From contig NC_043003.1 in assembly GCF_006345805.1 (NCBI RefSeq), positions 93,930,001 to 93,994,000 on the forward strand: DNA of 64,000 nucleotides, in the 5' to 3' direction. The notes under the pieces are model-generated. The model worked only from the letters and a program-made list of their open reading frames with translations. It was not told the DNA's origin and searched no databases. The stretch's first letter is position 1. Each line of letters opens with the position of its first letter. Shown in pieces: positions 24,414-63,000 of this stretch. The DNA is from Octopus sinensis (taxonomy: Eukaryota). The position numbers and the translations under genes were made by a program.

Positions 24414-25300
24414 TATTTCTGCCCATTTTCATTTCAATAAGTCAACCCAAAATTTCAGACTACAAACTAAATAATTTACGCAATCCTTATAATGATAATA
24501 ATGTTAGAAGTTATAAGGAGCACTAATTGTACTAATTTACATGTCCCACCTGAGAGCATTAGTAGTGTTTACTGATTTGAACTGTGAAGTAACCTCGTAC
24601 ACAATTCCTTGTACCACGGCACTCATATTCATTTTTAACGCAGGAACAAAGTCATATATTTTCAGAGAAAAGGAATCGATTTAGCCATCGAGTACAGTAC
24701 TTCATGAATAGATATGTCACATTGATCTGTATGAAGGAAAAGGGAAGTTGACCCCGATCGATATGAACATGGAATGTAAACACACTAAATACAACTAGTC
24801 TGAAGCGCTATCCACGCTACCATACCGCAACACTAATCCCTAAGATAGACAGAAGGTAACAAAAGTGAGTGGATGGGTTTAAATCGAATAAACTGGCTTC
24901 AGTACATAACGATGAAATATGAAGTCGGCTTAGAGGAGATATGAACTCAGAACTTAAAGAAAGGTTACTAAATATCGCACGTTTTGTGGATTCTGCGACC
25001 TACAGATTTGAGTGCGCCTAAAAAGACCATGAGCGCGCCTAAGAGAACATCAGTGCGTCTTATCAAAAACATGAGCGAAAGGGACACGAAAACTGAGATT
25101 GGATTGATATTCTGCAGAACAAAGTATTAATGCAATTCTAGTTTGTTTAGTAATATAGATATGTTTCGTGGGCAATTGACGAATAAAATTGCAGAATAGT
25201 AAGTAATAAAGGCATCCAATATTTATTATACAGCTAAATTCATTTAAATATACCAACAGGGTTAACGAACACGACATTGTTTATATGATATATATATATA

Positions 25301-25399
25301 TAGCGTTATATATATGGGCAAGTGTCTTGTACTGTAGCCTAAGGCCAACTAAAGCCTTGTGAGTGGATTTCGTAGACGAAAACTGAAAAATAACCCGTC

Positions 25400-25434
<35 letters not shown>

Positions 25435-25554
25435 TATTTGTGCATATATATATATACGACAGGTTCTTTTTCAGTTTCCGTCTACGAAATCCACTCACAA
25501 GGCTTTAGTTGGCCTTAGGCTACAGTACAAGACACTTGCCCATATATATAACGC

Positions 25555-25556
<2 letters not shown>
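25301..25556. repeat. Near-perfect inverted duplication of a SINE B fragment
   Basis: The arm tagcgttatatatatgggcaagtgtcttgtactgtagcc...gtcgta is reverse-complemented at 25455-25556, with about 3 mismatches and a TA-rich spacer. Confidence 0.95.
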
Positions 25557-25585
<29 letters not shown>

Positions 25586-35983: not shown

Positions 35984-36370
35984 ACGCGTAGGAGTGGCTG
36001 TGTGGTAAGTAGCTTGCTTACAGACCACATGGTTGAGGGTTCAGTCCCACTACGTGGCACCTTGGGCAAGTGTCGTCTACTATAGCCTCGGGCCGACCAA
36101 AGCCTTGTGAGTGGATTTGATAGACGGAAACTGAAAGAAGCCCGTCGTATATATGTACATATATGTATGTGTGTGTCTGTGTTTGTCCTCCCAACATCGC
36201 TGGACAACCGATGCTGGTATGTTTACGTCCACGTAACTTAGCGGTTCGGCAAAAGAGACCGATAGAATAAGTACTAGCCTTACAAAGAATAAGTCCTGGG
36301 GTCGATTTGCTCGACTAAAGGTGGTGCTCCAGCATGGCCACATTCAAATGACTGAAACAAGTAAAAGAGA
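35984..36370 (+). mobile_element. SINE family B, full length
   Basis: Highly similar to 26186-26570. Confidence 0.92.
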
Positions 36371-36383
36371 TATATATAATCAC

Positions 36384-37146
36384 TGTTATTTCTAAGTCTC
36401 TCAATGAGAGATATTCAGTAACAGTACTCTAAAGTAAAGATTATTTGCCAACATAATGTGGCAGTCTCGATTGGGACGTATGTTACTGTTATCGACTGCT
36501 GTTGGCTATACGACACACGATCTGTGTCCTTATATTTTCGAACAGGGGAGCTTAGCATCCTCACTCATCAGGGGTTTCGTAGCGCCAAGTCTAGCCGAAC
36601 AGTTATTCTGAGCAGAGGAAGAGAAATAACCCAGAAAACGCGGCCCACAGGTATTGCTTTGTGTTGAGTAAGGATGCTAAACTCCCCTGTTCGAAAATAT
36701 AAGGACACAGGTAATGTCTCGTATAGCCGGCTGGAGACGATGTTTCCTGAGGCTAAATAACCATAACATTCGTCCCAGCCAGGACTTCCACATTATGTTG
36801 GCAAATAATCTTTACTTTAGAGCAATGTTGCTGAATGCCTCTCGTTGAGAGATTTAGAAATAATAATGCTTCTGTGTATTAGATCAGAAATATGTGTAAT
36901 TTTTTTGGCGTCACCATCTCTAGCCGAGCAGTTTTTCTGTGCCGAGGAAGAGAAATAACCCAGAAACCAAGGTCCACAGATATTGCTTTGTGCTGAGTGG
37001 GGATTGCTAAACTCCCCTATTTGAAAATATTAGGACACAAATAGTGTGTCGCATGGCCAGCTAGAGACGATGTTTCCTTGGGCTAAATAACAGTAACATT
37101 CGTCCCAACCGGGACTGCCATATTATGTTGTCAAATAGTTTTTACT
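36384..37146 (+). mobile_element. Decayed retrozyme-like element: inverted arm plus ~329-nt tandem monomers
   Basis: 36384-36566 is an inverted copy of ~36666-36866, and 36590-36815 repeats at 36919-37146. HHR-like motifs lie at 36607-36650 and 36936-36980. Confidence 0.75.
36936..36980 (+). ncRNA. Degenerate type I hammerhead ribozyme
   Basis: tctgtg-CCGAGGA-agagaaataaccca-GAAA-ccaagg-TC-cacaga. Stem I is a perfect 6 bp; the core has a U4C change and stem II is weak. Confidence 0.6.
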
Positions 37147-37479
37147 ATATATATAGTAAAACACACACACACACATATATATAAACACACACACACACAC
37201 ATATATATATAGAATAAATTAAAAAAGGAAAATATACACACTTTACATAGTTTTAATATAATTTTTAATATATCGATCGGCTTCGCTTTCGCTATTCATG
37301 AAATTTTTGTGTATGTTGTGTATGATGATATTTACGAGTGAATGATTTCAAGTAGAAAATAAGGGGAAGTAATTGGCTATCGTTATTATTGTTATTGTTG
37401 TGGGCAAGGGGGATAACTGTTCAGCTTTCGGTAACGGGAGGGTAATATATATATATATATATATATATATAATAATAAT

Positions 37480-38200: not shown

Positions 38201-38559
38201 ATATATATATAAGTAATACTAAGCAATAAAGGGTTTAGCAACGAATTGCCTTACCACATACCGAATTTAGAAATAGCAGTCAAAGAGTTATAGCTATTTC
38301 TTCTACTAAAAAGGGAGATCTCAGTAAAAACAGCAATTGGAAGGCAGACACAAACAGGTAAGAGAGAATGAATTGACGGCAATCTATCATACAATTTTAA
38401 GTTATCTACGGACGCACGTTTCGAAATCAAGTTTTTAGGAAAGCATAAGAATTAAATATTAAATAATTCTACCTTACCAAAACTCGCTCTGATACTGAGT
38501 TGAGTTGGTGCCTTCTAGTATCTCAAAATTCAATATATAATCATTTATGATTATAGTAT

Positions 38560-38659
38560 TCTACGCTGAAGAGAAAAGAAGTTTTGGTAAGGTAGAATTA
38601 TTTAATATTTAATTCTTATGCTTTCCTAAAAACTTGATTTCGAAACGTGCGTCCGTAGA
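38560..38659 (+). ncRNA. Type I hammerhead ribozyme with long helix II (copy 1)
   Basis: tctacg-CTGAAGA-gaaa[~60 nt]tttc-GAAA-cgtgcg-TC|cgtaga. All core nucleotides are present, stem I is 6 bp and the triplet is GUC. Predicted cleavage after 38653. Confidence 0.85.
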
Positions 38660-39152
38660 TAACTTAAAATTGTATGATAGATTGCCGTCAATTCATTCTC
38701 TCCTACCTGTTTGTGTCTGCCTTCCAATTGCTGTTTTTACTGAGATCTCCCTTTTTAGTAGAAGAAATAGCTATAACTCTTTGACTGCTATTTCTAAATT
38801 CGGTATGTGGTAAGACAATTCGTTGCTAAACCCTTTATTGCTTAGTATTACTTAAATTTTCCTCGAATGAGGCTTTTACATGCCGAAGACTACTTGGTGT
38901 AATTGATAATTATTCCAAATTAATTAATTTCACCCTTCATTATTACGGATAACCATATTTTATCTCAGTAGATGACCACAGCATCTTGTTTTGGCTACAC
39001 GCGGGTGGGAAGGGGCTGGTGACACAATCTTTTCATTCACACATTGAATTTGGTGATACTAGTTGCGGGTTCTAGCTCGCTCTGATACTGAGTTGAGTTG
39101 GTGCCTTCTAGTATCTCAAAATTCAATATATAATCATTTATGATTATAGTAT

Positions 39153-39252
39153 TCTACGCTGAAGAGAAAAGAAGTTTTGGTAAGGTAGAATTATTTAATA
39201 TTTAATTCTTATGCTTTCCTAAAAACTTGATTTCGAAACGTGCGTCCGTAGA
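39153..39252 (+). ncRNA. Type I hammerhead ribozyme with long helix II (copy 2)
   Basis: Identical to copy 1, 593 nt downstream. Predicted cleavage after 39246. Confidence 0.85.
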
Positions 39253-39537
39253 TAACTTAAAATTGTATGATAGATTGCCGTCAATTCATTCTCTCTTACC
39301 TGTTTGTGTCTGCCTTCCAATTGCTGTTTTTACTGAGATCTCCCTTTTTAGTAGAATAAATAGCTATAACTCTTTGACTGCTATTTCTAAATTCGGTATG
39401 TGGTAAGGCAATTCGTTGCTAAACCCTTTATTGCTTAGTATTACTTAAATTTTCCTCGAATGAGGCTTTTACATGCCGAAGACTACTTGGTGTAATTGAT
39501 AATTATTCCAAATTAATTAATTTCACCCTTCATTATT

Positions 39538-39612
<75 letters not shown>

Positions 39613-40705
39613 TATATATATACACACAAACAAAAGAGTTTATAGTTTCGAGGGGATTTATGTACACGATTATGTAATTGTGAATTGAAATATGTAAAAA
39701 GATAAAAGTTGGTTATGAAAAAAGTTTCTTTATTTAAACGTTCTTGTGGAGAAATTGTAAAAGGGGAAGACTTTGAAATATGATTTGATGTTATCTGCTC
39801 ATTTTTCTATATGTTCACTGATAGGAATTTGCCTGTATTGCGTAAACGAATTTGCTCTTTATTTAGAGTGGGTCTCCGTCTCAAGGTCATACTCGTTTGT
39901 CCAATATAGTTGTGTCCACAATCCTAGAAGGTTATTACATAAATTAGGTTCTCAGAGGCACAAGTGAAACTAGTTTTAATTGTGAACCTCTCTCCTTGTT
40001 TGAAAAGGAAATCCGAGCCTTCAAATAAGTTAGGACAGGTTCCATAGTTTGGGTGCCCATATTTTTTAACCGTTGGATTAGTAGTTGTTTTGTAAAACTT
40101 CGCATTTGTTAGCAGTCAATTTAGCGATGTGTGCTGCTTTTTGCATTTGATGAGTTTGTGCGGTTTCAGGATGTCGTTCATTTTGGGATCTCTAGTTAGT
40201 AAAGGAAGATTTTGCACAATAGCGTTGAATGCCTCACTGTTTCTGGGGTTGTGTGTTGATATAAACAGTAGTGTTTTGAGATAAGTTGTGGTGTTATATT
40301 TTGTTGTTCTTAGTGTTTTTGCGTATAATTTTTTGGCACGTTTAATTCCCTCGTCTATAAATGAGGGTGGATATTGTTTTTCACTAAGCGTTGTTTTGAG
40401 GTCTTGAAGATGTCTTGAAGTAATTCTATCAGACACTAATGTGCAAATCCTCTTGCCAAATTAAAGGGGATATTTATTTTGATGTGTTTTGGGTGGCATG
40501 CGCTAAAGAGGAGATATTGTTTCAAGTCCGTTGGTTTATAATAGATGTCAGTTATAATTTGATTGTTGGCTTTTTTTTATCATGATGTCTAAAAATGAGA
40601 GCTGTTCTTTGTTATATTCATTGTGAATTAAATGTTACTATTTATATCATTTAGTGTTGATTTGAAGTCCAAACGTTTGTCGATGGTCTCCTTCCAAATG
40701 ATAAA

Positions 40706-43352
40706 TACCGTCCAGCGGTATTCTACCCACTAATGCTCAACCTACAACGAAATTCGATGCCGTCTATTGCAAGCTGAGCCTATCCGAGTTTTGCCTGCCC
40801 GTGTTAGCTGTCTACAGGCCGCCTCTTGCCGACCCCCAGGACGATGCTCATTTACTCGAAGCGATAAGATTCGTTTCAGCTTCGTATGACTGTTTGGTAC
40901 TAGGAGACTTCAACGCTCCCACGATCGATTGACCCGCATCAATTTGTACAACATCTTCCCGGTTCGGCCAGGCCCTTCTTGACGTGGCTGAAGATTGTTT
41001 TCTATCGCAACATGTTGAATATCCGACAAGGCATCGGTCTGGGCAGCAGCCATCTATGCTGGATCTGGTATTCTCCCGCTATCCAAGATCAGTGTCAGAC
41101 GTATCTGTGTGCGCCCCTCTTGCCAAGAGTGATCATGCGGTCCTGAAGTTCGTCATGCACACAACTTTTTCTACGCCCACGACTACTTCGCTGCCACGTA
41201 GAGTCTTCTCTGCAATTAATCTTGAAATTCTAACCGAGGCTTCCGCGCTTCTGGACTGGCGATCCCTGATGACGTTGTCCTCAGTTGACGAACTATGGTC
41301 ATCCCTCAAAGCATATGTAATCTGGTTGACTGACCAGGCAGTTCCCGTTGGGCTTCCCAAGAAGAAGCACAAGCCCTGGGTGACGAAGAAGGTTAAATGA
41401 GAACGTCGACTCAGAGATATTGCTTGGGCTGAATTAAAAAATCTGGATTCGACTGCAGCTTTTGAGGTGTACAAAACTCAACGAGACCGAGCCGTGAAAA
41501 TTGAAAAGGGAGAACGCTTCAGTTATGAATACAAATTCGCGGCAAATGCCAGTAGCAATCCAAAAACCTTCTTTGCCCATCTCCAACGGAATTCCCGCTT
41601 GAACAACAGATTGCAACGTTGGTAGACTCAACAGGCGTATCGATTGGGGACCCTTATCAACAGAGTCAATTATTTGCCGAGGCTTTTTCAACTATTTTCA
41701 AACAAGATGATGGTCGTGAACCCCCTCCATTTGATAGATCGGTACCTCCAATGCCTAGATTGGTCATCACGCGGGACGAAGTCAAACGTGTTATTCAAGG
41801 CCTCGATGTCAACAAGGGTCACGGCCCTGACGGCATACACCCACGGGTTATCAAAGCGTTGGCTCCGGTCATCTGCGAGCCCTTAACACGTCTATTCAAT
41901 ATGTCATTGGCGATGGGTGTTATACCTGCGGACTGGAGAACAGTGATAATCTGCCCAATTTTCAAGAAAGGGAGCCGCGAAGACCCGCTTAACTACCGAC
42001 CGGTTTCCCTTACATCAATAATCAGCAAGATGTTCGAAACCATCCTTAAGAAAAGTATGATGCTCCACCTCCAAAACACAGCCTCTATCTCTGATTCCCA
42101 ACACGGCTTCGTGCCAAAGAGATCATGCTTGACCAACTTACTGGTAGTGGAAGAATTAGTGACGCGCATCCTCGATGATAGTGATGCTGTTGACATCGTT
42201 TTATTGGACTTTGCCAAAGCTTTTGACTCGGTAAACCACCGCCTATTACTTGTCAAGCTTCAAGCATATAGTTTCCATCCGGATATTGTACGTTGGGTTG
42301 GTCCCCTCCTCTCAGATCGCTCCTTCCAAGTCCAAGTTAATGGTTCGCGGTCCGACGTCTCCAGTGCGAGCAGTGGCGTGCCTCAAGGTTCAGTGCTTGG
42401 GCCCTTATTGTTCTTAGTCTTCATAAATGACTTGCCCGACGACCTCACGCAACACACCCTTCTATTTGCCGACGATATCAAACTGGCCGCTCCTCGCGGT
42501 GATACAGAGGATCTTCGTCGATGCCTCCACCAAATTTGGAAGTGGTCTAACGAATGGGACCTGTGTCTGAACGTGTCAAAGTGCTGTCATCTGCCTGTTG
42601 GCTCTCCTTCTGCAACTCAACTTGATTTCGAGCCGGGTCGTCTGCTGCTGGAGAGGACCGATCAGGTAAAGGACCTGGGTATCTTGGTGGATTCCTCCTT
42701 TTCGCCTTCGGCCCAGTACGTCCATGCTGCCAACAAAGCACGCGGAATTCTGTTCTTGATTCGACGGTCATTCGGAATGCTCACAGCAGCCATATTCCTA
42801 CCACTCTATGTCACGCTGGTGAGACCCATATTGGAGTACGGGATTCAAGCCTCTTCTCCTTATCTCCTCAAAGACATACAGCATCTCGAAAGAGTCCAGA
42901 AGCTGGCTACCCGCATGGTTCATGGTCTCAAAAATTTGTTCTATGAAGAAAGGCTGAGGACGCTCGACCTTTATTCTCTTGAAAAACGCCGCCGCCGTGG
43001 TGATCTCATTCTCGCCCACAACATCATAAGCGGAAAGTGTAACCTCTCGAAAGAGCTGTTCTTCACTCCTGCTCCAGAGCGTCGGCTGCGGGGTCATTCC
43101 GAAAAGCTCTACCTGCGACGATTTCATCTCAATCGAAGGAGAGGAGCTTTCTCCGTCCGGGTTGCGGATCCGTGGAACAAGCTGCCAGACGAGATGGTGA
43201 AGATGCCGACGACCGCTTTGTTCAAAGCCTCCCTTGACCTCAAGTGGCCTGAACTCTTTACATGAACACCACCCTGTACTTAACTCCATGTCCCCCTACA
43301 TGGCCTTGCTATTTGCTTTTGAGCCAAATTAACTAACTAACTAACTAACTAA
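40706..43352 (+). mobile_element. CR1-group LINE (APE plus RT), 5'-truncated, with (CTAA)n tail
   Basis: APE motifs YRPP, LVLGDFN, LDLVFS and SDH. ORF 41619-43265 has NYRPVSLTS, QHGF, DFAKAFDSVNH, SGVPQGSVLGP, LFADDIK, LVRPILEY and LERVQ. Tail is taactaactaac. Confidence 0.95.
41619..43265 (+). CDS. Reverse transcriptase portion of LINE ORF2 (548 aa open frame)
   Basis: Uninterrupted RT domain with FADD. The upstream endonuclease part has stops or a frameshift, so the copy is probably non-functional as a whole. Confidence 0.8.
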   Translation: MVDSTGVSIGDPYQQSQLFAEAFSTIFKQDDGREPPPFDRSVPPMPRLVITRDEVKRVIQGLDVNKGHGPDGIHPRVIKALAPVICEPLTRLFNMSLAMGVIPADWRTVIICPIFKKGSREDPLNYRPVSLTSIISKMFETILKKSMMLHLQNTASISDSQHGFVPKRSCLTNLLVVEELVTRILDDSDAVDIVLLDFAKAFDSVNHRLLLVKLQAYSFHPDIVRWVGPLLSDRSFQVQVNGSRSDVSSASSGVPQGSVLGPLLFLVFINDLPDDLTQHTLLFADDIKLAAPRGDTEDLRRCLHQIWKWSNEWDLCLNVSKCCHLPVGSPSATQLDFEPGRLLLERTDQVKDLGILVDSSFSPSAQYVHAANKARGILFLIRRSFGMLTAAIFLPLYVTLVRPILEYGIQASSPYLLKDIQHLERVQKLATRMVHGLKNLFYEERLRTLDLYSLEKRRRRGDLILAHNIISGKCNLSKELFFTPAPERRLRGHSEKLYLRRFHLNRRRGAFSVRVADPWNKLPDEMVKMPTTALFKASLDLKWPELFT

Positions 43353-45275
43353 AACAATCAACCAAGTATCTTTTCCAGTTCTCTCTTATATAATGGTAAA
43401 ATGGGTAACCATATTTTTGAAGTGATACTTCATTATTAGGTTCGCAAGAACAGGGACTGCTTTCGTCCTCATCGCAATTACGCATTTTTAACGATAGTAT
43501 GTGTCATCAAATAGGAAATAGTTGTTCTGAAGTATAAGTTTTAAAGAACCATTAATAAAATTCTGATTTATGAGTTCCGGGTGTACTGTGGGGGTACTTT
43601 TCCAACCAGATTTTGATTGCTTCTATTCCATAGTCATGTGGGATGTTGGTGTAAAGATTGATAACATCGAAGGTAACCAATATTGCCTCTACATTAATTG
43701 TTTTTGGTAGGTATTCTAGCATGTTTAAATCATCTCTAATGAAACTTTTGATTATTTTAGCAAGGTTTTCATTAGGATGTCTAGAAAATTGCTCAGGTGG
43801 TGGGTCAACTACAATGAGTCTTAAAGTTAAGTCTTCTGGTGTTTGGATATTTATGTATTTGCCTGGTGATTGTTTGCAGGCTTCATTGATTATCTTGCTC
43901 TTGTGTATTTTAGGAAGGCCGTAAAAAAGACTGGGTTTACATTTGAAGTTCGTGATGTAGTCCGTTTCTTTTCCTTGTTTTTTTTGTTGTTTATAGTTTA
44001 TAACATTTTCGTAGAAGACCTCGTTTTCTAGTATGGATAATACTAGGTTTTTATAGTGTGTTCTGTGTCAATCAGGACTACAGCACTTCCTTTGTCTGCT
44101 TCTTTGTCAGGTCTTTGTCGTTTTGTAGTTCAATTAGATTTTTCTATTCTAGATTGTTGAGGTTCGAATTATTTTTTCGTTTAATGGAGGTATGTGGGAA
44201 ATTTTTGATATGGTCGTAGAAGTCATCCAGTGTTTTATTCCTACCCTTATGTGGAAGGTAATTACTGCTGTGTTGTTGCAGTCAGTTAGTGCTTCTGCGA
44301 GTCGTAGTTTTCTGCAGAATTCCGAAATATTGTCTTTAATTTCATTATGGTTAGACCTTCGTGGGGTTTGAAGTAAACTTTAAACCTTTGGCTAGTATAT
44401 TGATTTTTATTATGGATAGAGTTTTCTTTGATAAGTTAATGACTTTGGGTTTCTCCCGGTACGTTTTGTTCCAACGTGTGTCCCTGTTTCTTTCCACTCG
44501 GTCTAAAAAATGTTTATTGCAGTTTGGTTGCTAGAAGATATCATTGGAGATATTGTTATTAATTAAATCAGTATTATTATTTATCTTGGGATTGCTGGGA
44601 GGTTGGTGTTGCTGCGTGGGTAAACTGGCTGGGAGCACGTGGCTTGGGTTTCTTCGTTGGAATGAATTGTTGGGGTGCCTAATTATATTTGGAATGCTGG
44701 GGAGCTGGTTGTGTTGTCTGGGTAAATACGATGAGGTTCCGTAGGTTGAGTTTCTTCGTTGAGGAGTAAAGGGGGACTCTTGGATGTTTCTCGTTTCTGA
44801 GAGAAAAAATTACTCCTAACTCTATGTTGGTTTCTTCTAGTGTTTCTAATTGGTGAGTTGTCCCTGTTATTAGATCGAGAATGGTTTTCTTTTAGACGAT
44901 GGGTCAGTTTTGTGTGTTTGTGTTCTTTTGGATGTTGATTGTTTGATCTAGGTGGACATGTATTTATTCCTGTAGAGATTTTTGTGTCCAGATGTTTTTT
45001 AGTAAGGGGTTATCTGAAGTGTAGTCTCTTTTAAACTGAGCTTCATAACTAGCTATATTAGCTATATCAAATCACTGATAGAGAGGTAAACAGTAACAGA
45101 ACGGAATCGTAAAATATATTTGCCAACTAAATGTGGTAGTCCCGCAGAGGACGATGTTACTGTTGTTTTAAGCCCCATGAAGACATCTTCTACAATTGGT
45201 TAACGACAGACTCTCTCTGTCCGATTAATATTTGCGAGTTGAGGTCATCGCTCCCATCTCTAGACTTACGTGATT

Positions 45276-45320
45276 CACACAGACCTGGGTTTCTGGGTAG
45301 TTATCCGTCTTCAGCTAGTG
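45276..45320 (-). ncRNA. Type I hammerhead ribozyme (inverted copy, stem I damaged)
   Basis: Minus strand reads CTGAAGA-cggataactaccca-GAAA-cccagg-TC-tgtgtg. Confidence 0.6.
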
Positions 45321-45609
45321 ATGAACACTCATTCCACTTACAAAATACTATATGCTTTTTCCATCGATCTCGAAAAAGGAGAAAAAGCTACATCAAATCT
45401 CTGAGCAACAGTAACATCGTCCTCTATGAGACCACCACATTTAGTTGACGAATATATTTTATGATTCCGCACTGTTACTGTTTACCTGTCGCCCAGAAAT
45501 TTCATATAGCTTATTTCTCCTTTCTCGAGATTAGCGACATTTTGTCGCTGGAAAAAAGCATATAGTATTTAGCGAGTGGGAGGAGTTTCCATCACTGGCT
45601 GGTAATTAT

Positions 45610-45654
45610 CACACACTGAAGACGGGTAACTAATCAGAAACCCGGGTCTGTGTG
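45610..45654 (+). ncRNA. Minimal type I hammerhead ribozyme
   Basis: cacaca-CTGAAGA-cgggtaactaatca-GAAA-cccggg-TC|tgtgtg. Stem I is 6 bp and stem III is the perfect palindrome acccgggt. Confidence 0.8.
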
Positions 45655-45859
45655 TATCACGTAAGGCTAGAGATGGGAGCGATGACCTCCCTTCGCAAAT
45701 ACTAATCGGACAGACAGTGTGTCGTTACTCAGCTGGAGGAAATGTCTTCCTGGGGCGAAAAACAACAGTAACATTGTCCTCTATGGGTCCGCCACATTTA
45801 GTTCGCAAATATATTTTACGATATATATAAAGCAATAATCGGTGTTTCGGCGTTCCTGG

Positions 45860-60679: not shown

Positions 60680-63000
60680 TTGCATAAAAGACAATAAATG
60701 CACCAAATGGTTCAACACAGCATTACATTAACACGTTAGGACGATATTGGATGCTAAAATCCTGGATGCATCTTTCGACAAGTCGAACGAACATATTGAA
60801 GAATATTACCTGACAAGCAAATAATTTTCTCTCCTACAACATTTAACTTATCATTTCCATTTTAGATATTTCAGAGAAGTATGAGATTTATTAATTCTAA
60901 GAGGTATTTCTGCCTAGTTAGGAAGTCTTTGAGTTTGTTGAGTCGGATTTGACGTATTTTGGGATCAATCATTATAGTACAGATACGTTTTGCCATGCTG
61001 TACGGGATGTTCCTTTCGATGGCAAGAGTAGAATATTGGTGCGTGTCCGTTTTTTTTTTGTAAAATATGTCTGTTGTGACTGTGAAGTTGTGTATTTTTT
61101 ATGTGAATATTCAGGAACGGTAATTCATTGCAACTGGATTCTGTCGTGAATTTGATCGATGGGTGAAGTGTTTTGAGGATATTAATAAATATTTGTAGGT
61201 CCTCATTTGATCTGTCCCAAAAGATGAAGCAGTCATCGAAGAAGCGTTTCCACTTTTTATTACGTATTTCTACCAATTCTGATTAAAAGCTCTTTCTACT
61301 TCCTCATAAAGCTTTTCTTCCAAGAATCCCATGACTAGGTTAGCAGAGGAGGGTACAAGCCGCATCCCGATATGTATTATTATCGAATCTAAAGGTGTTT
61401 TCTTCTAGTACCAGGCGTGTGGCTTTGGTGATGAAATCAGTTTTGAAGCGTTCATATATCCGTCCTCTATGCTTCTCTACTCAGTGTTTGTTTCCAGGCC
61501 CAAAGTGCGAGGTATAATAGTACAGAGATTGGTGACATGAAAGCTTGTAAGTATAGTACCTTCTGGGAGAGTGGATGGAATGTGCTAGAGGAAATCTATG
61601 CCGTCCCATATATAGTTGGGTATTAATGAACATAAAGATTTTAGGAGTATGTCCAAGAAATGACTCAGGTGTCGTGTTGGTGCTTGAGGTCCAGCAACTG
61701 TTGGTCTCAGTTTGAGGTCAGTAGGTCTTAGTATTTCTATGTATTAGTTCCTCTGTTCATTTATGGCTTTCTGGAATTAGGGGCTTTTGAGGATTTGGGG
61801 TAATCCGTAGAAATTGCTCCGTTTGATTACAGAGTTGCATAAATAATCTTTCTCCTTGTCTGTGAAGTAATCTTTAATTAGTGTTTTGATTTTATCCATT
61901 ATTGCTTCTTCCGGCTGTTTTGGTTCTTTGTTGTAGTAGGTTTTGTCTGGTACAATTTCCAATATTTTATCTTTATAGTAGTCTTTGTCCATGATTACTA
62001 TCGCCTCTCCCGTATCGGCTTCTTTTAGGAGGATTGAATTGTCATTCTTCAGTATTAGTAAGGCTTCCATTTCTTCTTCACGAAGGTTTTGTTTGTATTT
62101 TCGGGTACTTAGGGGAAATTTCGAAATTGTGTCTATTCCCTTTCAAGCGGGTGAAGTGGGTTTTATCTCTGGCAATTGATTCCTCATTTATATCCTTATT
62201 GCCAAAGAATTCAATAATCCGGAGGTGGCGGTTAAAATGCTCAATATCAGCGTTTAGTTCAATGAGATTAGGGGTTGGCGTCGGGGTAAATTTGAAACAT
62301 TTCAATAGGAGATTCATCTCATTCTTGTTGAGGCTTCTATTTGACAAATTTATGACCTTCGGGTTTATGTGTTTTGTGTGCTCATTAAAATTTCCTCTTG
62401 CACCGGATATTTTCTCCCTAAAAAGGATATTGTATTATTGTGTTTCCATTTTTTTGCTGTTTTCAGGTTCTAGTTCTCTCGTAGATGAGGGGATGGTTCA
62501 TGTTCTTTATACGTACTTTGTTGTCTATAACTTCTGTCTTCTTCCCATCTTTTATGCTTGTTGAGCCACTCACGATGTATGGGATTGTTGGTAGGGAATC
62601 GTGAGATTCTTGAGTTTCCATGATGATTATTCATATTATGGTTTCTGTATTGTCTGTATATTACTTGTATTTCTTTCCATGTATTTATCCATCTAGGTTA
62701 CTTGGTATTATGGGTTAGTGGTTGTCTGCATGTTTCTTGTCTTTTCTATTTTTTCCCCGTGTATTCATCCATCTTGGGTGTTTGATATTATGGGTTGATG
62801 ATTGTCTTCTATATTCCATGAGTTTGTTTATTGCAGTATTATGTTTTTGTATTGCAGAATATGGGTTTCTAGTCAGCAGTTGGGGTGAGCTGGAGGTCGT
62901 CTCCTCATATGTTCTTGGATAACTAGTGATTGATACCTTAGTTTGGTTCATCTGGGTTCGGTGTCTATGTTTGTTTTTCATTTCCTTGCATTTTTTGTTG
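60680..63000 (-). mobile_element. Decayed Penelope-like element
   Basis: ORFs contain NLSNRSLNKNEMNLLLKCFKFTPTP, KEADTGEAIVIMDKDYY, FYGLPQILKS, LRPTVAGP and KWKRFFDDCFIFW...LHPSIKFT...LPFL, all Penelope RT signatures. Confidence 0.85.

What the first reader, a model, noticed from the sequence alone, without database searches (positions are those of the whole stretch)
45084..45825. Second HHR family: ~357-nt permuted monomer with an inverted copy beside a Penelope 5' end
Seen in sequence: a segment at 45406 recurs at 45763 (period 357) and the unit contains a canonical minimal HHR (45610-45654) with a perfect palindromic stem III. A diverged inverted copy of almost the whole unit lies at 45084-45404, with its own HHR on the minus strand. 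Inference: this is a non-LTR retrozyme of the usual animal size, copied from a circular template, since the two orientations start at different points of the unit. Alternative: the minus-strand copy sits just upstream of the minus-strand Penelope ORF and could be that element's own terminal repeat.
Basis: partly seen in the sequence, partly recalled or inferred. Interest (0 to 1): 0.75.

Follow-up and report, generated by a model that had tools for sequence, protein, structure and literature searches.

The report
Worn retrozyme pasted in Penelope-style
This is one worn copy of a 357-base, protein-free repeat scattered across this genome that carries a predicted self-cutting RNA motif and was likely pasted in by the enzyme of a Penelope-type jumping gene; it is a new member of the known animal 'retrozymes', not the end piece of the Penelope element beside it.

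Summary
The period-357 repeat, the type I hammerhead (45610-45654) and the inverted copy are real. The inverted arm's hammerhead lacks one strand of stem I. The unit is not the terminal repeat of the adjacent Neptune-type Penelope: that copy is 5'-truncated about 715 nt inside its ORF, and none of 58 other loci of that family carries the unit. It is an old (about 8-9% diverged), dispersed, ORF-less family. In 84 loci, arms end at two fixed sites about 48 nt apart, mostly in microsatellites; 27 of 28 classifiable head-to-head pairs use one of each. The neighbouring Neptune family is as old and has the same two-site geometry. Best reading: a non-LTR retrozyme copied in trans by Penelope machinery. 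Arms read through the cut site, so the template was a circle or an uncut multimer; the data do not separate these. No long arrays, no arm with two intact cores, no autonomous parent and no RNA circle were found. This scan already reported the same kind and footprint for other families on other DNA of this genome.

The parts
45407..45822 (+). Plus arm, 1.17 units; 5' end at unit position 1, 3' end at site A (position 59), followed by ATATATA
   Evidence: 92% to the family majority
45057..45406 (-). Minus arm, 1.07 units; 5' end at unit position 85, 3' end at site B (position 108, with the ~48-nt tail)
   Evidence: 83% BLAST identity including two deletions, 91.5% at aligned non-CpG sites
45610..45654 (+). 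Type I hammerhead, core intact, stem I 5/5, stem II 3/4, palindromic stem III; predicted cut after 45648; predicted to need a dimer
45276..45314 (-). Remnant hammerhead of the minus arm: core intact, 5' strand of stem I deleted
45407..45415 (.). Head-to-head junction; these 9 nt are the reverse complement of unit positions 70-78 (closing stem of the 3' cloverleaf), a likely microhomology, with 6 nt of the unit skipped
   Evidence: interpretation inferred
43351..45051 (-). Neptune-type Penelope (family X), 5'-truncated about 715 nt into its ORF; N-terminal and RT part, broken by stops and frameshifts; neighbour, not part of the unit
40706..43350 (+). LINE with APE and RT domains inserted into the Neptune ORF (CR1-like is my recalled label)
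39650..40705 (-). Neptune X: RT end, CxxxxCxxC linker and GIY-YIG endonuclease
37205..37457 (-). Rest of the Neptune X 3' UTR, split off by later insertions; no hammerhead found
36369..37145 (.). Sister retrozyme family (349-nt majority): plus arm 1.7 units ending at site A, minus arm 0.6 unit ending at site B; hammerhead cores degenerate

Best explanation
This is one decayed insertion of a dispersed, ORF-less 357-nt repeat carrying a predicted type I hammerhead ribozyme (a non-LTR retrozyme), likely copied into the genome in trans by the reverse transcriptase and endonuclease of a Penelope-like element. Shown: the unit, the hammerhead motif, two fixed 3' ends about 48 nt apart, scattered 5' truncations, microsatellite flanks, head-to-head arms pairing one end of each kind, and read-through beyond one unit. 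Inferred: a Penelope-type protein nicks both strands of a short TA tract; each nick primes cDNA internally on the same kind of RNA, one at site A and one at site B; the two cDNAs stop at random and are joined, here through a 9-nt microhomology. Inferred and less sure: the template was a hammerhead-cut, re-ligated circle (about 55%) rather than an uncut multimeric transcript (about 45%). A Neptune family of the same age, such as the neighbour, is the likeliest helper; this is not shown. This locus has one complete hammerhead and is unlikely to release a monomer now.
For: 2361 first-look candidates, 40 scored, on many contigs. Copies are 87-94% identical to a 357-nt majority with stops in all three sense frames. 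101 of 134 arms in 84 loci end at positions 46-60 or 97-113, 9% of the unit. Of 46 head-to-head pairs, 28 have both ends in these windows: 27 A+B, 1 A+A, 0 B+B, p about 1e-7; 20 of 20 in the three samples drawn after the windows were set. Microsatellite within 30 nt of 61 of 79 such ends against 309 of 1517 background positions. In the two short-query samples 31 of 62 arms cross the cut site and 9 of 62 exceed one unit; no pile-up of 5' ends there (5 seen, 3.8 expected). Segments of one locus share 30% of their differences from the majority, different loci 11%. Two majority hammerheads co-fold as a double hammerhead. All 6 stem I pairs are swapped in the sister family. Neptune X ends at two sites about 50 nt apart (23 and 13 of 37 ends) and is equally diverged (93% against 92%). 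PAc cuts and extends both strands and starts at two internal sites (PMC11167929).
Against: No cleavage, circle or transposition was measured. No autonomous element with this terminal repeat was found, so descent from a pLTR is not shown; only three Neptune families were checked. The unit has no significant similarity to Neptune X (best E 0.6). No long arrays: apart from a recent local duplication (L009, 98% identical units, cut site mutated) the longest arm is 1.77 units; 0 of 7 arms with two hammerhead sites keep both cores. 33 of 134 arms end elsewhere and 18 of 46 pairs could not be classed. The monomer's lowest-energy fold is not the hammerhead, and Rfam does not detect it. Samples are the best matches to this copy, not random.
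Confidence: 0.8

Rival explanations
1. The unit is the pseudo-LTR of the adjacent minus-strand Penelope.
For: The minus arm abuts the Neptune copy in the same orientation with about 5 nt between them, and an inverted arm lies upstream, as in textbook PLE insertions (PMC8557442 passages).
Against: 23 of 23 other copies continue upstream with Neptune ORF sequence; the start codon lies about 715 nt further 5'. Family X makes its pLTR from its own 3' UTR, with no hammerhead found. Profile search: 0 of 58 loci hit by this family.
Confidence: 0.02
2. The copies are 5'-truncated ends or partial tandems of another, unsampled autonomous Penelope family whose pLTR is this unit; there is no free retrozyme RNA.
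For: All insertion signatures are those of PLEs; PLE hammerheads occur mostly as solo or opposite-strand pairs 100-700 bp apart (PMC4209133, section 5). Only about 90 of thousands of candidate places were read.
Against: 43 of 134 arms wrap past one full unit without leaving the unit. Among 91 loci a PLE ORF was near only two: this one and L101, where 200 nt of microsatellite intervene. No 3' attachment in Neptune Y (0 of 24); in Neptune Z only sporadic insertions.
Confidence: 0.1
3. Same element, but the join to the Neptune copy is one event: the RT finished a truncated Neptune X cDNA and jumped to the retrozyme RNA at site B, which would make X the helper.
For: No real microsatellite between the two; the tail end is repeated for 9 nt at the join; equal age; one seamless head-to-head join of a family arm and a truncated Neptune Z at L226.
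Against: The two arms already form a complete A+B insertion, and the flanks rejoin to a (TA)5 tract (read). 16 of 54 X 5' ends have a microsatellite beside them and none of the 54 has this unit. The sister family sits in the microsatellite at the other end. At L226 both partners end with a tail, against the A+B rule.
Confidence: 0.2
4. A satellite-type repeat spread by DNA-level duplication and inversion; the hammerhead is a fossil passenger.
For: L009 is a local duplication; five loci are one fragment carried by a MITE-like element.
Against: The two arms here share 0 of 52 differences from the majority over 324 nt; fixed 3' ends, random 5' ends and A+B pairing are not expected from recombination.
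Confidence: 0.03

Closest known systems
Metazoan non-LTR retrozymes (Cervera and de la Pena 2020, PMC7229834; passages and part 3 of 6 read: mussel 350-390 bp, axolotl 330 and 350 bp)
   Same: ORF-less unit of that size, type I hammerhead with short palindromic helix III, a mismatch at the base of stem II as in HHR_Amex2, coexistence with PLEs.
   Different: Dispersed partial and head-to-head copies rather than arrays; old and decayed; no circle or cleavage shown.
Retrozymes as non-autonomous PLE derivatives (Li, Clavereau and Pollet, bioRxiv 10.64898/2026.07.22.740005; parts 1-3 of 5 read; supplements closed)
   Same: Proposed helper relation; monomer-rich families are described there.
   Different: Their evidence is co-occurrence and pLTR similarity in vertebrates. 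Here the evidence is insertion ends, and no related pLTR was found. Their 'active' criterion (two consecutive complete hammerheads) is not met.
Penelope-like element insertions (Craig et al. 2021, PMC8557442, passages; Frangieh et al. 2024, PMC11167929, parts 1-2 of 4)
   Same: 5' truncation, inverted 5'-truncated copy, tail often at one end only, microsatellite targets, two internal RT start sites, both strands cut and extended.
   Different: No ORF; tail about 48 nt rather than 30-40; the unit wraps onto itself; near-strict A+B pairing is counted here and was not given as a count in the passages I saw.
[quoted passage not shown]
   Same: Extra base after A9, G-C first pair of stem II, palindromic helix III, opposite-strand pairs a few hundred bases apart.
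   Different: A further unpaired A before GAAA; no associated ORF.

Membership tests
Non-LTR retrozyme | Type I hammerhead motif in the unit | tested here: met
   core and three stems in the majority and the plus arm; core intact in 18 of 36 and 2 of 12 segments of the two samples not selected for the core
Non-LTR retrozyme | Non-coding unit of about 170-400 nt | tested here: met
   357 nt, stops in all three sense frames
Non-LTR retrozyme | Head-to-tail tandem organisation | tested here: inconclusive
   43 of 134 arms exceed one unit, 5 exceed 1.5, none is a long array
Non-LTR retrozyme | Two consecutive complete hammerheads (the 'active' criterion of Li et al.) | tested here: not met
   One complete motif here; 0 of 7 two-site arms keep both cores. 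This argues against present activity, not against the kind
Non-LTR retrozyme | Self-cleavage and circular RNA in vivo | not testable with these tools
   Only assembled contigs of runs guessed to be RNA
pLTR of the adjacent Neptune element | Same repeat at 5' and 3' ends of family copies | tested here: not met
   0 of 58 loci; junction lies inside the ORF
pLTR of any autonomous PLE | Unit continuous with a GIY-YIG ORF end | tested here: inconclusive
   None in 91 family loci or in three Neptune families; other families not sampled
PLE-type insertion | Fixed 3' ends with an optional tail, variable 5' truncation | tested here: met
PLE-type insertion | Inverted 5'-truncated copy at the 5' end | tested here: met
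   46 head-to-head pairs in 84 loci
PLE-type insertion | Microsatellite target bias | tested here: met
   61 of 79 against 309 of 1517
PLE-type insertion | Mobilisation by a PLE protein | not testable with these tools
   Inferred from the footprint

The most novel reading that the evidence does not exclude
These insertions are fossils of a Neptune dimer priming both cut strands on a circular ribozyme RNA, one subunit at each of two start sites, and the seamless retrozyme-Neptune joins (this window; L226) are single events in which one enzyme copied its own mRNA and a retrozyme RNA, naming the helper of an animal retrozyme directly.
Probability: 0.25. Interest if true: 0.65.

Novelty: new member of a known kind. 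Interest (0 to 1): 0.32.

Why it matters
How animal retrozymes get back into the genome is proposed but not shown. This family adds insertion-end evidence for Penelope machinery and shows that a Neptune family of the same age in the same genome has the same two-site geometry, which gives a concrete in vitro test. The value is limited: the kind is published, the family is old and decayed, and the scan has younger families with the same footprint in this genome that are better experimental material.

Tried and rejected
Rfam scan: no hammerhead hit. RNA: no RNA holder listed on record. Contigs of five runs guessed to be RNA hold family pieces, mostly under 95% alike, with a depth profile like the probable DNA run X6; contigs cannot show a circle, so no weight either way. 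One 357-nt go-back joint at depth 3.5 is expected from any permuted genomic copy. Pile-up of 5' ends at the cut site as a sign of cleaved linear templates: 3 against 1.1 expected in one sample (P 0.1), 5 against 3.8 overall; rejected. Search for a parent in Neptune X, Y and Z: none. Five loci with a shared 3' flank looked like a parent but are a MITE-like element with a captured fragment. Rows dropped before the count: 9 and 8 repeated or overlapping loci, the 5 MITE loci and 2 loci with duplicated flanks. The hammerhead census had an indexing error; one search replaces it. A Pfam family route to sample all PLEs was not available. Sequence look-up in earlier findings returned nothing. Literature searches; none listed a paper on this family or on cephalopod retrozymes, within the held library only. 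Supplements were not read; those of the bioRxiv preprint could list related families.

Full report
Observation. The repeat at 45406-45465 recurs 357 nt later at 87% identity, and inverted matches link 45057-45360 to 45406-45822. A strict scan finds one type I hammerhead in the window, at 45610-45654; 3 of 100 shuffled windows give a hit. Rfam lists none. On the family majority the locus is two head-to-head arms: minus 45057-45406 (1.07 units, positions 85 to 108) and plus 45407-45822 (1.17 units, positions 1 to 59). The minus arm's hammerhead has lost the 5' strand of stem I; the plus arm keeps core, stem I and palindrome but only 3 of 4 stem II pairs.

The neighbour. Translation shows a broken Penelope ORF on the minus strand with RT motifs, a CxxxxCxxC linker and GIY-YIG; the linker marks the Neptune and Nematis clades (PMC8557442, passages), and I call it Neptune X. 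It runs from 45051 to about 37205, split by a LINE and a young repeat. All 23 other copies that reach this point continue upstream with Neptune sequence; the longest reach a start codon about 715 nt further 5', preceded by the element's own 3' UTR. A profile of the unit hits 0 of 58 other X loci, two pairs of which overlap one insertion. The unit is therefore not this element's terminal repeat.

The family. The genome search gave 2361 first-look candidates, of which 40 were scored. I drew four samples: whole unit, hammerhead pattern (18 exact matches, 0 in the control), a 65-nt 3' piece and a 101-nt middle piece. After dropping repeats, five MITE-borne fragments and two duplicated flanks, 84 loci with 134 arms remain. 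The majority unit is 357 nt, copies 87-94% identical to it. All samples are best matches, so numbers are not genome rates.

Footprint. 54 arms end at positions 46-60 (site A), 47 at 97-113 (site B), 33 elsewhere. Of 46 head-to-head pairs, 27 are A+B, 1 A+A, 0 B+B and 18 unclassed. The windows were set on the first sample; the later three give 20 of 20. Microsatellites follow 61 of 79 A or B ends against 309 of 1517 background positions (first three samples). 5' ends are scattered, with no excess at the cut site. This matches PLE insertions: inverted truncated copy, tail often at one end, microsatellite bias (PMC8557442, passages), and two internal RT starts with both strands cut and extended (PMC11167929, parts 1-2). 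Neptune X has two 3' ends about 50 nt apart (23 and 13 of 37 ends); its three pairs with both ends in view are two mixed and one not. X and the unit are equally old (93% and 92% non-CpG identity to their majorities) but share no significant sequence.

Template. In the two short-query samples 31 of 62 arms cross the cut site and 9 of 62 exceed one unit. A cut linear monomer would cap arms at about 175 or 220 nt, so the template was a re-ligated circle or an uncut multimer (inference). Segments of one locus share subfamily variants more often than different loci do (30% against 11%), which fits one event from one kind of RNA. The two arms here share none of 52 differences, so they decayed separately after insertion. 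Against a circle: no long arrays, and no arm with two intact cores (0 of 7); PAc uses uncut RNA in vitro (PMC11167929). Two majority hammerheads co-fold as a double hammerhead, while a monomer folds otherwise, as described for palindromic helix III motifs (PMC4209133, passages).

Sister family. The repeat at 36369-37145 has a 349-nt majority, colinear with this unit (70-76% in the best stretches). All six stem I pairs are swapped between the two (12 sequences chosen by me, essentially one family split). It is also an A+B pair of arms, in the microsatellite at the other end of the same Neptune copy.

Helper. No ORF runs into the unit in 91 loci, nor in 24 loci each of Neptune Y and Z. Neighbouring Neptune pieces at L101, L250 and L120 are separated by microsatellite. 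One exception, L226, has a diverged family arm joined head-to-head to a truncated Neptune Z through a 3-nt overlap, 1 of 21 Z 5' ends; both partners carry tails, so a deletion could also explain it. For this window, the flanks rejoin to a five-unit TA tract 2 nt from the truncated X end (read), and 16 of 54 X 5' ends lie beside microsatellite, so shared targeting is the simpler reading; a template jump is not excluded.

Expression. Not decided.

Known work and earlier notes. The kind is published (PMC7229834), and its PLE origin is proposed (bioRxiv 10.64898/2026.07.22.740005). I saw the two end sites; earlier notes of this scan report the same two-armed footprint for many other families in this genome, and I took the wording 'two-armed' and the push to count pairs from them. 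They call the genome an octopus; I did not test that. They are unchecked AI notes and add no support.

Verdict. Real; a new, old and decayed member of the animal non-LTR retrozymes with a Penelope-type footprint. Interest 0.32.

Noticed in passing
L226:1181-1540 (G000:C3:88351983-88352342): A diverged family arm is joined head-to-head, without spacer, to a 5'-truncated Neptune Z through a 3-nt overlap; possible hybrid insertion naming a helper, or a deletion.
   Followed up: partly
window 36369-37145: Sister retrozyme family, also an A+B pair of arms, 2606 first-look candidates in the genome.
   Followed up: partly
window 38207-39544: Young ORF-less repeat (period 593, copies elsewhere 95-97% identical) with direct and inverted arms, inserted in a TA tract of the Neptune 3' UTR; has a CTGAAGA and a stem but no GAAA core in this copy.
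   Followed up: no
L154, L158, L170, L171, L174: MITE-like element with terminal inverted repeats that carries an 80-nt captured 3' fragment of the unit (positions 337-58).
   Followed up: partly
L221:932-1256: About one unit of a third related hammerhead family (palindrome ATGCAT) inserted in a Neptune Z 3' UTR with an apparent duplication of about 17 nt.
   Followed up: no
L009:1089-1848: Dimer whose units are 98% identical and share a mutated cut site: local duplication after decay, not a rolling copy.
   Followed up: yes
L177-L201: Young abundant Neptune family Y (22270 first-look candidates, many 96-97% identical, open frames up to about 1000 aa), with a CTGTTGAAGAGC...TCGAAACGTTA hammerhead-like stretch near its 3' end that I did not test.
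   Followed up: no
L032, L072, L158 (single hits): A further dispersed minimal hammerhead family (CTGAWGAAGGCTG...GAAAYGTT) appears in flanks.
   Followed up: no
window 61492-61986: Fragment of another Penelope-like RT on the minus strand, 33% identical to Neptune X.
   Followed up: no
window 44578-44761: 102-nt internal duplication in the Neptune X N-terminal coding region, shared by other copies.
   Followed up: no
window 25276-25580: 305-nt near-perfect inverted repeat of a SINE-like repeat around a TA tract.
   Followed up: no
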